The notes beneath the pieces were generated by a model that was given only the letters and a program-made list of their open reading frames with translations, searched no databases and was not told the DNA's origin. This document shows positions 3,698-6,877 of a DNA stretch of 64,000 nucleotides, piece by piece. Each line of letters starts with the position of its first letter. The first letter of the stretch is position 1. This DNA comes from Squalus acanthias (Eukaryota), in contig CM059453.1 in NCBI GenBank assembly GCA_030390025.1, forward strand, positions 5,952,001 through 6,016,000. Direction: 5' to 3'. The translations under genes and the position numbers were made by a program.

Positions 3698-4610
3698 CCA
3701 TACCCTTTGATGCCTTTTGTACCGAGAAATCTATCTATCTCCTTCTTACATATATTTAGTGACTTGTCCTCCTCAGCCTTCTGTGATAGAGAATTCCACG
3801 TCTTCTCCAGCCTCTGAGTGAAGAAATGTCTCCTCATCTCAGTCCAAAATGTCGTACCCCGTATCCTGAGACTGTGACCCCTCGTTTTCGACCCCCCAGC
3901 CAGGGGAAACATCCTCCCTGCATTCAAACTGTCTAGCCCTGTCAGAATTTTATACCTTTCGATCAGATCCCCTCTCATTCGTCTAAACTCTAATGAATAC
4001 AGGCTAGTCGACCCAATCTCTCCTCCTACGACTGTGCTGCCATCCCAGGAATCAGTCTGGTGAACCTTCGCTGCACTCCCTCTATGGCAAGTGTATCCTT
4101 TCTTAGTTAAGGAGACCAAAACTGCACTGAGTACTCCAGGTTTGGCCTCACCAAGGCCCTATATAACTATAGTAAGACATCCTTGCTCCTGTACTGAAAT
4201 CCTCTTGCAATGAAGGCCAACATATCAATTGCCTTTCAGACTTCTTGCTGCATCTGCATGTTTACTTTCAGTGCGTGGTGTACAAGTACACCCAGGTCCC
4301 TTTGTACATCAACATTTCGCACTCTATCACCATTTAAATAATACACTGCCTTTCTGTTTTTTCTACCGAATTGGATAACTTCACATTTATCCACGCTATA
4401 GTGCATCTACCATGTATTTGTCCACTCACTCAACTTGTCCACATCGCCTTGAAGCATCCTTGTATCCTCCTCACAACGCAAAATCCCACCTAGTTTCGTG
4501 TCGTCAGCAAAGCTTGGAAAAAATACATTTGGTTCCCTCATCCAAATCATTGATATATATTGTGAATAGCTGGGGCCCAAGCACAGGTTCCTACGGTGCC
4601 CCACTAGTCA
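3698..4610 (-). mobile_element. 5'-truncated CR1 whose 5' end abuts the ERV gag
   Basis: Minus-strand RT fragments ([22 protein letters not shown]). Confidence 0.85.
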
Positions 4611-5178
4611 GATAGATTCACTTTATCTTCACCTCGGGGCGCAACTTGTGGTTGCTGGGGTTGATTTACTGGATCAGTAATCATTGCACCTCCAGCATTT
4701 AAATAAGAGTGAGCTTGTGCCTGCCGGCAATGATTATAATGGATTCTAAGCTGTCTATAGATTTCTCGAAGATTGTTGTCATTTATTTCATCATGAGCTT
4801 GCCACCTTAACCGGAATCCATGGCCCCCAGGAGCATAGGCTGTTCCGGGTCCTGCTATTCGGCCATGGTTGCCACCACCTTGTTGTGCACCGTTCATTAG
4901 GCCTCCCAACTGTGCACGTGTGCACCTTATCATTAAGGCATTTATTGGATTTGGAGTATTTGTTTGATTATCCCACAGGATATTCTGTATCCCCTGGTTC
5001 TGGGTATCAACATCAATCGTGCCATGAGTTCTAACGGCTCCTTCGGCATCAAAGCCTTCTATTTCAAAAATTATCACTTGGTTTTGTGGAGGTACAGGGA
5101 TAGGATTACTCCCCTAATAAAGCAATCGTTTGAATTTCCTAATAAAAAGACTTGGCCAATTCCGACAGGGCTTGCCAT
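4604..5178 (-). pseudogene. gag: Gag N-terminal region, spumavirus Gag-NTD-like; frameshifted near the start and truncated by CR1
   Basis: The ATG at 5178 (MASPVGIG) is out of frame with the 157-aa ORF 4604-5077. NPIPVPPQNQVIIFEIEG, NPINALMIRCTRAQL and HGRIAGPGTAYAPG resemble foamy Gag NTD segments by eye. Confidence 0.55.
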
Positions 5179-5414
5179 TTCGTCAGGACCTAACCTCGGT
5201 TAGGGTTTAATATGAACTTTATAAGAAATTTCTAGACCTCAATGGTATATTGAGGGAGTTCTGATTTAAGTTCTGCAAGGCCTGATCAGGGTTGTTTCGT
5301 CTCTAGAGACTTAAATCTGGGTCTTAGTAAAACACTCATTCTATACTTAACAATCAACAACATGGATATAGATATAAATATAAGTATCGGTTCTGTATCA
5401 ACTCTTTAACACAG

Positions 5415-5427
5415 ACGTTGGGCGCCA
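5415..5427 (-). promoter_or_regulatory. Primer-binding site, tRNA-Lys1,2 type
   Basis: TGGCGCCCAACGT matches 13 of 18 nt of the Lys1,2 PBS and lies 2 nt downstream of the LTR-terminal CA. Confidence 0.85.
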
Positions 5428-5429
5428 AC

Positions 5430-6877
5430 TGAAGGGATAATTACTAGTCCTAGCCCTTTTCGGGCTACCCCGGATCAGGCATATTCCCCAGACTTCCACC
5501 TTCAACTAAAGTTAGAGAATGCCGAATTCGATAAGATGCTTAATTGGATCTACAGGTCCAGGCTATCTCTCTCTGAAGGAAAGGAATGGCTTGAAGATTT
5601 TACCATCCTGCAGATAGCAGTTTTAATAAGTTTAACTAGACTGTAATCTTCTGTATATTATGAGGGTCCGGAAAACCCACTCAGAACTCTGCAACTCCTC
5701 ACCAAAAAGTGTACAGAGATTGAGTTCGCGAGTTTCATACAGAAATACTATGTGAGACAATTCTAAGAAAATATAGATTTATTAATGAACCGACATGTAG
5801 TTAACAGTTGGTGTTCCAGTCGCAACATTGACAGTTCAAAAACAGCTAGCTTACAATTTTTTTCTCAAATCTTAACTTCGTTACATTTTTACATTTCTAC
5901 TTATTTCTAATCCAGAATATCCACCAACATCAAATAAAAGCACCTTTTGATCCCCGAGTCTCAAAGAGTTGAACACTTACAGAGCGTGCCTCTGAAGAGT
6001 GAAATAATCGCTTGCCCTGTTCAGCGACTTCTGACTTCCTATCTGAAAGCTCTATATTTTCTCATCTTTTTGCAGTGGTATCTCCTTTGAAGTTTTCTGC
6101 TGATGTAAACTAATAATCTCTAGTCATTCTTTCTGTTTCCATCTTTCTAATCTTAATTTCAGTTCAGCTGTTAACTTTCAGAATCCTGTCTGCTGTTTAG
6201 GTGTTCAAATTTTATCATAAAAAATGGTTATAACAGATGTATTTATTTGATGCCATTCTTAGGAAGGTCTTCCATTCAATTGTTAAACCACCTTATCTGG
6301 TTGAAAGCAGACTTAGTGTCTCCTAACTGTTCCGAGTTCAATACAAAAACCATGTGATTGCTTGGTGCATCTATTTATTGTGATATTTACAAATTCTTCT
6401 GTTTGTACCTTTTACAGTATGTAAATCAAAAAAACACTTCAGCCGAGTACTTGATTGTTTCCCTTGCCATCTCAATTGGTTTTATTCCAACTTATGTTTC
6501 CTGTCTTTCATTTGATGTTACCTTTACAAAGGCACATATTTCTTTAATATTCTGTGTTTCTGTTCGAAGTGTTAGTTTAAAACACTTTAAACTGGGTATA
6601 GCTATTGTGTTTTTCGAAAGCTCAGACTTTCTGGAAACAATTCTTTGCTTCTTCAATAAGGCATTTGTTTTAGTGGCAACAACCATTTCCCTTTTCAAAA
6701 GCTTGTATGGTGTTTACAGCTTTGTGTTAACAAACCATGTGATCTCAGAGCATGTATTCACAGCTTTGTCTCTTTGAGGCTTTTTAGATTGTTAAACCCA
6801 GTTTATCATGTTTTAATAAAGTCAGAATTCTGTTCATAGGATGGTGTATTTTTCTGAAATCTGGCTATTCCTTTACA
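5430..6877 (-). repeat. 5' LTR (~1.45 kb)
   Basis: 3' end fixed by CA plus PBS. Tentative 5' end TGTAAAGGAAT is an imperfect inverted repeat of ATCCCTTCA. Minus-strand AATAAA at 5778-5783. Confidence 0.6.

What the first reader, a model, noticed from the sequence alone, without database searches (positions are those of the whole stretch)
4604..6877. Foamy-virus-like endogenous retrovirus remnant in a shark intron
Seen in sequence: (a) LTR end CA + 2 nt + TGGCGCCCAACGT; (b) an unusually long ~1.45 kb AT-rich LTR; (c) a ~240-nt leader; (d) a Gly/Gln/Pro/Asn-rich Gag-like ORF starting MAS. Established: spumaretroviruses use tRNA-Lys1,2, have the longest retroviral LTRs, and have a unique Gag NTD. 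Inference: NPIPVPPQNQVIIFEIEG, NPINALMI..AQL and HGRIAGPGTAYAPG align by eye with foamy Gag NTD segments. Foamy ERVs in cartilaginous fish are rare and poorly characterised, so this may be an undescribed lineage. pol and env are missing, because a CR1 5' end joins directly to gag.
Basis: partly seen in the sequence, partly recalled or inferred. Interest (0 to 1): 0.85.

Follow-up and report, generated by a model that had tools for sequence, protein, structure and literature searches.

The report
Shark foamy-like retrovirus with readthrough polymerase
This is the broken front end of one copy of a foamy-virus-like retrovirus present in over a hundred mostly envelope-less copies in a probable shark genome, and its gag and pol genes lie in one reading frame split by a single stop codon, so it likely made its polymerase by reading through that stop rather than from the separate spliced message used by known foamy viruses.

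Summary
The window holds the 5' LTR, tRNA-Lys primer site, leader and first ~190 gag codons of a provirus, cut off by a CR1 LINE. Longer copies in the same genome show the family is foamy-like: foamy protease, capsid and Env profiles pass their cut-offs, and RT and integrase trees place it with mammalian foamy viruses, apart from teleost foamy-like ERVs. It is abundant: at least 150 gag-bearing copies, about 8 with env, many more sharing one env deletion, plus solo LTRs. The unexpected feature is the gag-pol junction: same frame, TGA in 52 of 65 distinct junctions, sense codons in 13, and no ATG before the protease active site. Known foamy viruses make Pol from a spliced mRNA with its own ATG. 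Most likely this lineage made Gag-Pol by UGA readthrough (inferred, untested). An unnamed relative in the same clade has a single Gag-Pol ORF. Verdict: new variant of a known kind.

The parts
5430..6877 (-). 5' LTR, 1448 nt, TG...CA
   Evidence: family LTRs follow a polypurine tract and give 4-nt target duplications
5415..5427 (-). Primer-binding site, 13-nt match to the tRNA-Lys site printed for AciFLERV
   Evidence: (supplement of PMC5512871); one env-bearing copy matches 17 of 18
5179..5414 (-). Leader
5113..5178 (-). gag start (first ~22 codons), then a 1-nt frameshift
4610..5112 (-). gag N-terminal domain, continued in another frame; ends just before the capsid domain
   Evidence: 86% identical to another copy; capsid match starts at residue 187 of that copy
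3690..4609 (-). 5'-truncated CR1-type LINE joined directly to gag (not part of the provirus; low end approximate)
   Evidence: the label CR1 is recalled from the RT C-terminal sequence and 3' microsatellite
166..435 (+). Host exon, Ig domain (upstream of the intron holding the provirus)
6951..7073 (+). Host exon, transmembrane segment; its splice acceptor lies about 73 nt from the LTR start

Best explanation
The window holds a dead, 3'-truncated provirus of an abundant foamy-like retrovirus family whose gag and pol lie in one frame split by a TGA, and which likely made Pol as a Gag-Pol fusion by occasional ribosomal readthrough of that UGA. Shown: LTR-gag-PR-RT-RNaseH-IN-env-LTR layout with foamy-type capsid, protease, integrase and Env; in-frame junction with no ATG before the protease active site; a few env-bearing copies and many copies sharing one env deletion; solo LTRs. 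Inferred: an infectious virus entered the germline; an env-deleted derivative then multiplied inside cells by retrotransposition, tens of millions of years ago; readthrough, possibly helped by a predicted stem-loop starting 6 nt after the stop, supplied Pol, which would be packaged through its Gag part instead of by the RNA-dependent route of mammalian foamy viruses.
For: Foamy identity: PF03539 33 bits (cut-off 21), PF20672 49.9 (30), PF18103 43.6 (25); Pol vs PDB: foamy Pr125Pol E 2e-125, the best non-foamy RT rows 1e-25; IN vs PFV IN E 5e-64; Gag vs foamy Gag chains 5m1h/8ozk; PF03408 Env at 11 matches on 6 loci, linked to the same gag-pol at 85-93% nt. Trees: RT+connection in the foamy-like clade 100/100, with mammalian FVs and salamander rows 97/93; IN with mammalian FVs SH-aLRT 95. 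Junction: 52 TGA, 7 TGG, 4 TGC, 2 TCA of 65 distinct contexts, catalytic Asp at codon 29 after it in 56 of 65, a Met in those 29 codons in 4 of 65, one upstream-frameshifted and three point variants; in a sample chosen by Gag profile, 23 TGA of 27 with a junction, 30 loci examined; TGA also in one of two env-bearing copies that keep the junction and in diverged copies L154 and L167. No pyrimidine-rich acceptor near the junction (best 0.56 vs host 0.88 and 0.69). The hexamer resembles the UGA readthrough contexts listed for SSSV and a frog ERV (PMC13517186); WEHV-1 pol as deposited has its Asp at residue 31. Shared variants show purifying selection in pol (omega 0.52, p 0.01) while singletons are neutral (0.99). 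P0012, in the same subclade (98/93), is one 1687-aa Gag-Pol ORF without a stop. Env loss: 7 loci with long env matches among 18 candidates against 40 of 40 scored copies spanning the deletion, 505 candidates; 27 of 30 share the junction motif.
Against: Readthrough was not measured. 13 of 65 junctions are sense codons and P0012 has no stop, so an open ancestral frame is possible. The stem-loop scores z -3.1 only on a window chosen to fit it, and -1.2 and -0.7 on wider windows; copies are too alike for covariation. Selection in gag is not significant (omega 0.69, p 0.07) and neither gene is significant for variants shared by 3 or more copies. The copy tree is star-like and its bootstrap had not settled. 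The deletion count is biased because the query spanned the deletion. The Gag N-terminal domain has no foamy match. P0012's Gag shows no BLASTP similarity to this Gag and no PF20672 hit.
Confidence: 0.65

Rival explanations
1. The real virus had one open Gag-Pol frame, like P0012. The TGA is an inherited nonsense change in non-autonomous masters, and Pol came in trans from sense-codon copies.
For: 13 of 65 junctions are sense, one of them in an env-bearing copy; P0012 has no stop; the third base of the codon is among the 5 most variable of 380 columns.
Against: TGA is the majority state, occurs in env-bearing and diverged copies and sits exactly at the Gag/protease boundary; sense copies need 7 separate changes on the tree and are not clustered; pol in mostly TGA copies shows purifying selection on shared variants.
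Confidence: 0.2
2. Pol was made foamy-style from a spliced mRNA, with an acceptor at or near the junction and either an upstream coding exon or a non-AUG start.
For: All characterised foamy viruses do this (PMC7828637); an AG follows the TGA directly and a CTG in fair context lies at codon 15 (sequence).
Against: The AG has a purine-rich upstream region; the first in-frame Met is usually codon 104, past the protease active site; the CTG lies inside the strand that aligns with P0012's protease start; splicing would not explain the conserved common frame.
Confidence: 0.12
3. The element is not foamy-like but a lokiretrovirus, ERV-S/L, gamma/epsilon or Gypsy element that has some foamy-like parts.
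For: The junction is of the gamma/epsilon/ERV-S type (PMC8278194); the Gag N-terminal domain has no foamy match.
Against: Capsid, protease, RT, integrase and Env each point to foamy viruses.
Confidence: 0.03

Closest known systems
Mammalian foamy viruses (Spumaretrovirinae: PFV, SFV, FFV)
   Same: A9-type protease, capsid domain, RT-RNaseH (35-38% identity), integrase with SH3 C-terminal domain, Env overlapping the pol end, tRNA-Lys primer site, 4-nt target duplication, no Cys-His box, no Gly2.
   Different: gag and pol in one frame with a TGA and no pol ATG; no recognisable Gag N-terminal domain; no tas/bel-sized ORF found after env; high copy number, mostly env-deleted.
Salamander FLERVs (NviFLERV-2) and teleost FLERVs (AciFLERV/AliFLERV), PMC5512871
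   Same: Foamy-like clade in non-mammals; tRNA-Lys site (AciFLERV); long LTR (1498 nt); 4-nt duplications.
   Different: NviFLERV-2 and AciFLERV have a pol ATG in another frame (NviFLERV-1's start is marked uncertain). Teleost rows form a separate clade for RT and IN and their Gag/Env lack detectable foamy homology (PMC5210030).
Published chondrichthyan foamy-like ERVs: CmiFLERV (elephant shark) and ERV-Spuma.0-Sca (catshark, PMC10699275)
   Same: Same host class, foamy-like Pol.
   Different: An elephant shark RT (P0013) falls outside this subclade. ERV-Spuma.0-Sca is reported to group with Aci/AliFLERV and no Gag domain was detected; its sequence was not seen here, so identity with this family is unlikely but not excluded.
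Readthrough retroviruses: gamma/epsilonretroviruses, SSSV, ZFERV, XtERV-S
   Same: In-frame stop between gag and pro-pol; UGA with a similar following triplet in SSSV and the frog ERV.
   Different: RT and IN lie outside the foamy-like clade; different Env.
P0012 (unnamed Logan protein, 1687 aa) and P0015 (Scyliorhinus torazame gene model with an RT fragment)
   Same: Nearest rows in the RT tree (98/93); P0012 has Gag and Pol in one frame and a YNLRP motif also seen in PFV Gag.
   Different: P0012 has no stop at the junction, 34-36% Pol identity, no detectable Gag similarity; host and env unknown.

Membership tests
Spumaretrovirinae (foamy viruses) | RT and IN group with foamy viruses | tested here: met
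   100/100; 97/93 with mammalian FVs; SH-aLRT 95
Spumaretrovirinae (foamy viruses) | Spumavirus A9 protease at the Pol N-terminus | tested here: met
   PF03539 33 bits, cut-off 21; other copies, not the window copy
Spumaretrovirinae (foamy viruses) | Foamy Gag central (capsid) domain | tested here: met
   PF20672 49.9 bits, cut-off 30; 150 genome matches over cut-off; PDB 5m1h E 8e-06
Spumaretrovirinae (foamy viruses) | Foamy Gag N-terminal domain (PF03276 or its fold) | tested here: inconclusive
   No profile match (one search had no positive control); model pLDDT 45, no foamy fold row
Spumaretrovirinae (foamy viruses) | No Cys-His box, no myristoylation Gly2, Gly/Arg-rich Gag C-terminus | tested here: met
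   One natural 525-aa Gag: no CCHC, starts MAN, G+R 21% in the last third
Spumaretrovirinae (foamy viruses) | Foamy-type Env with long leader peptide | tested here: met
   PF03408 over cut-off at 11 matches on 6 loci, 77 and 37 bits on open frames; only in a minority of copies
Spumaretrovirinae (foamy viruses) | tRNA-Lys1,2 primer site, 4-nt target duplication, polypurine tract border | tested here: met
   5 of 5 solo LTRs with exact 4-nt duplications
Spumaretrovirinae (foamy viruses) | Pol made apart from Gag, own ATG in another frame, spliced mRNA | tested here: not met
   Same frame, TGA or sense codon, no ATG before the active site in 61 of 65; tested on DNA only. Filed therefore as foamy-like, not as a subfamily member
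Spumaretrovirinae (foamy viruses) | tas/bel accessory genes and internal promoter | tested here: inconclusive
   Longest viral stop-to-stop frame in the env-LTR spacer or LTR was 85 codons in 6 copies; copies are decayed; promoter not tested
Spumaretrovirinae (foamy viruses) | Late reverse transcription, Env-dependent budding | not testable with these tools
   needs live virus
Readthrough retroviruses (gamma/epsilon, SSSV, XtERV-S) | In-frame stop between gag and pro-pol | tested here: met
Readthrough retroviruses (gamma/epsilon, SSSV, XtERV-S) | RT groups with these viruses | tested here: not met
   WEHV-1 and MLVIN_C-bearing rows lie on the other side of a 100/100 branch
Readthrough retroviruses (gamma/epsilon, SSSV, XtERV-S) | Measured readthrough and a stimulatory RNA structure | tested here: inconclusive
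   Stem-loop predicted, significance depends on the window; readthrough not measurable here
Lokiretroviruses | RT in the lokiretrovirus clade; F0-like Env | not tested
   No named lokiretrovirus row in the trees; Env matched PF03408

The most novel reading that the evidence does not exclude
Cartilaginous fishes carry a whole branch of true foamy viruses, close to the mammalian ones, that makes Pol as a Gag-Pol fusion (UGA readthrough here, an open frame in P0012). This is the surviving ancestral state, so the spliced, separately packaged Pol that defines Spumaretrovirinae arose later and more than once; and a foamy virus became an env-less genomic superspreader.
Probability: 0.3. Interest if true: 0.88.

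Novelty: new variant of a known kind. Interest (0 to 1): 0.68.

Why it matters
Separate translation of Pol from a spliced mRNA is the textbook hallmark of foamy viruses and forces a special RNA-dependent packaging route (PMC7828637). A lineage with foamy capsid, protease, integrase and Env but an orthoretrovirus-like in-frame gag-stop-pol junction shows the hallmark can be uncoupled from the rest. It makes the origin of that trait testable with trees and a small reporter assay. The family also appears to be a foamy-like virus that spread as an env-less retrotransposon; my searches found no report of either feature, though only open-access text was searched. The window copy itself is a dead fragment.

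Tried and rejected
Gag N-terminal domain: Pfam, PDB sequence, ESM Atlas and fold searches gave nothing usable; best fold Z 5.3 on unrelated beta-barrels with a pLDDT 45 model, not interpreted. Full Gag against the 90% protein set: 0 hits among 4207 candidates. Viral contigs: no relative. Metagenome contigs: 78 loci, best segments 22-36% identical, not analysed further and none a close relative. Sequencing runs: no RNA holder listed; 20 of 24 rows hold part of the stretch, under 7 organism labels. Contigs of 4 runs laid on LTR-gag-PR: no GT..AG joint among 15 shown (21 not shown) and no listed difference at the junction among 40 shown (259 not shown); not used as evidence. Long LTR as a foamy argument: given little weight. 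Sense codons as one amplified subfamily: rejected, not clustered. tRNA genes in the window: none. Rows dropped: 17 of 162 too short for the first tree; 45 chosen rows; 9 of 30 left out of the IN tree; one copy dropped from the Gag alignment for internal stops. First junction tally (90 rows) held duplicates and was replaced, where two loci identical over 200 nt count once.

Full report
Observation. On the minus strand the window shows an LTR from 6877 to 5430 (1448 nt, 35.6% GC), then two bases and a 13-nt tRNA-Lys-type primer site (one match, none in 100 shuffles), a leader, and gag from 5178. Homology to other copies stops near 4610, where a truncated CR1-type LINE begins; nothing more of the provirus lies in the window or the 10 kb beyond its start. 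The element is antisense in an intron between an Ig exon and a transmembrane exon. The host was not identified; a 3.7-Gb genome and a catshark fragment as nearest named tree neighbour fit a cartilaginous fish.

The family. The internal part gave 904 candidates and the LTR 6458 in the own genome, 40 scored each. The Gag central profile gave 150 matches over cut-off from 178 candidates. The 5 best LTR hits examined were all solo LTRs with exact 4-nt duplications. Ten longer natural copies read LTR-gag-PR-RT-RNaseH-IN-LTR, several with insertions or deletions. Foamy profiles pass their cut-offs for protease, capsid and integrase C-terminus. Pol matches foamy Pr125Pol at E 2e-125 against 1e-25 for the best other RT rows, integrase matches PFV integrase at 5e-64, and Gag matches foamy Gag chains. 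The foamy Env profile hit 11 places on 6 loci; all six carry this family's gag or pol at 84-93% nucleotide identity. Their Env has a long leader, a hydrophobic segment, a basic cleavage site and a C-terminal membrane segment (read by eye).

Placement. A 45-row IQ-TREE of RT plus connection domain puts the family in the foamy-like clade (100/100), with mammalian foamy viruses and salamander rows (97/93), and nearest to an unnamed 1687-aa protein P0012 and a catshark fragment P0015 (98/93). Teleost rows, with another catshark RT, form a separate clade, and an elephant shark RT is outside. The integrase tree agrees (SH-aLRT 95, 21 rows). No named coelacanth, reptile, bird or lokiretrovirus rows were available.

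Gag N-terminal domain. The AlphaFold model from 7 near-identical rows is poor (pLDDT 45; beta-rich head and a long helix) and found no foamy fold. The point is open.

The junction. gag and pol share a frame. Over all loci fetched from the genome, 65 distinct junction contexts read TGA 52, TGG 7, TGC 4, TCA 2; the protease Asp is codon 29 after the junction in 56, and a Met precedes it in only 4 damaged or variant copies. A sample picked by Gag profile gave 23 TGA, 3 TGG, 1 TGC, with 3 of 30 lacking the junction. Of six env-bearing loci two keep the junction, one TGA and one TGG. Sense variants are scattered on a star-like tree (7 changes, shuffled mean 6.8; bootstrap unsettled). No pyrimidine-rich acceptor lies near. 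A stem-loop from +10 to +59 folds at -20.5 kcal/mol, with the 8-bp core intact in 26 of 30 copies; its z-score is -3.1 on the fitted window but -1.2 and -0.7 on wider ones. Variants shared by two or more copies show omega 0.52 in pol (p 0.01) and 0.69 in gag (p 0.07); singletons are neutral; variants shared by three or more are not significant. P0012 runs Gag into Pol with no stop, though its Gag is not detectably similar to this one.

Mechanism. Most likely (0.65) the UGA was read through at a low rate to give Gag-Pol, as for SSSV, ZFERV and a frog ERV, whose UGA contexts are listed in PMC13517186 (passages; no mention of foamy viruses) and PMC8278194 (passages). Foamy viruses instead make Pol from a spliced mRNA (PMC7828637, passages), and published NviFLERV-2 and AciFLERV have a pol ATG in another frame (PMC5512871, passages and supplement passages). 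Rivals are an open ancestral frame with an inherited nonsense codon (0.2) and splicing with an unusual start (0.12). Whether the fused state is ancestral or a reversal cannot be told: if salamander and mammalian viruses are sisters, both histories need two steps, and that fork is open.

Spread. An env probe found 7 loci with long matches among 18 candidates. A probe across the deletion found 505 candidates, with 40 of 40 scored copies spanning it (biased by the probe), and 27 of 30 sharing the junction motif. About 3.1 kb of env is gone in two deletions. LTR pairs differ by 0.014-0.059 (12 comparisons, some partial): 14-59 Myr at the rate assumed in PMC10699275, 32-134 Myr at that in PMC4422223; both rates are assumptions. 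Intracellular retrotransposition of an env-deleted master is inferred; the env-less superspreader idea and PFV retrotransposition were seen only as reference titles or a passing mention. The window copy's internal part is 91-93% identical to env-deleted and 84-89% to env-bearing copies; its own env state cannot be read.

Novelty. Shark foamy-like ERVs are known: CmiFLERV (PMC5512871) and ERV-Spuma.0-Sca (PMC10699275, parts 1-2 of 4 read; reported with teleost FLERVs; supplement not seen, so its sequence may bear on this claim). Also read: PMC4422223 (part 1 of 2) and passages of PMC5210030, bioRxiv 2020.12.18.423569 (supplements closed), PMC8227577, PMC7947760, PMC12690878, PMC12642411, PMC3814592. 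Nine searches listed no paper on a foamy-like virus with an in-frame gag-stop-pol junction or an env-less foamy burst; subscription journals and repeat libraries were not searched. Because one defining feature of Spumaretrovirinae is not met at DNA level, I file it as foamy-like: a new variant of a known kind, interest 0.68.

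Noticed in passing
G000:C8:104447863-104462237 (L019-L020): Two env-deleted proviruses in tandem sharing a middle LTR, with the same internal deletions; LTR distances 0.014-0.016.
   Followed up: partly
L083-L084, L159, L161: Three env-bearing copies share one deletion from the end of gag to the end of RNase H: a possible pol-less, env-bearing sublineage.
   Followed up: partly
L163-L166: Four copies keep more env than the common deleted form, suggesting nested, stepwise env loss; the common form itself has two deletions around a ~35-nt env island.
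   Followed up: partly
L021:7260-7720 and equivalents: The env-deleted form keeps about 100 codons of the Env leader's cytoplasmic part, overlapping the pol end, without its membrane segment.
   Followed up: no
window 5415-5427 and copies: Most copies match the tRNA-Lys site for 13-14 nt and then diverge; one env-bearing copy matches 17 of 18.
   Followed up: no
window 16087-17013 and 33641-34570, minus strand: Two similar ~308-codon single-exon frames that look like class A GPCRs (label recalled, no family search).
   Followed up: no
window 48718-52064: A 388-codon frame and neighbours that look like a PIF/Harbinger transposon (label recalled).
   Followed up: no
window 53200-63741: Several Ig-type exons, partly duplicated 2.3-2.4 kb apart, resembling a Siglec/CD22-like gene (label recalled).
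   Followed up: no
P0015: A Scyliorhinus torazame gene model joins a foamy-like RT fragment to a PRDM11 sequence; probably a prediction artefact.
   Followed up: no
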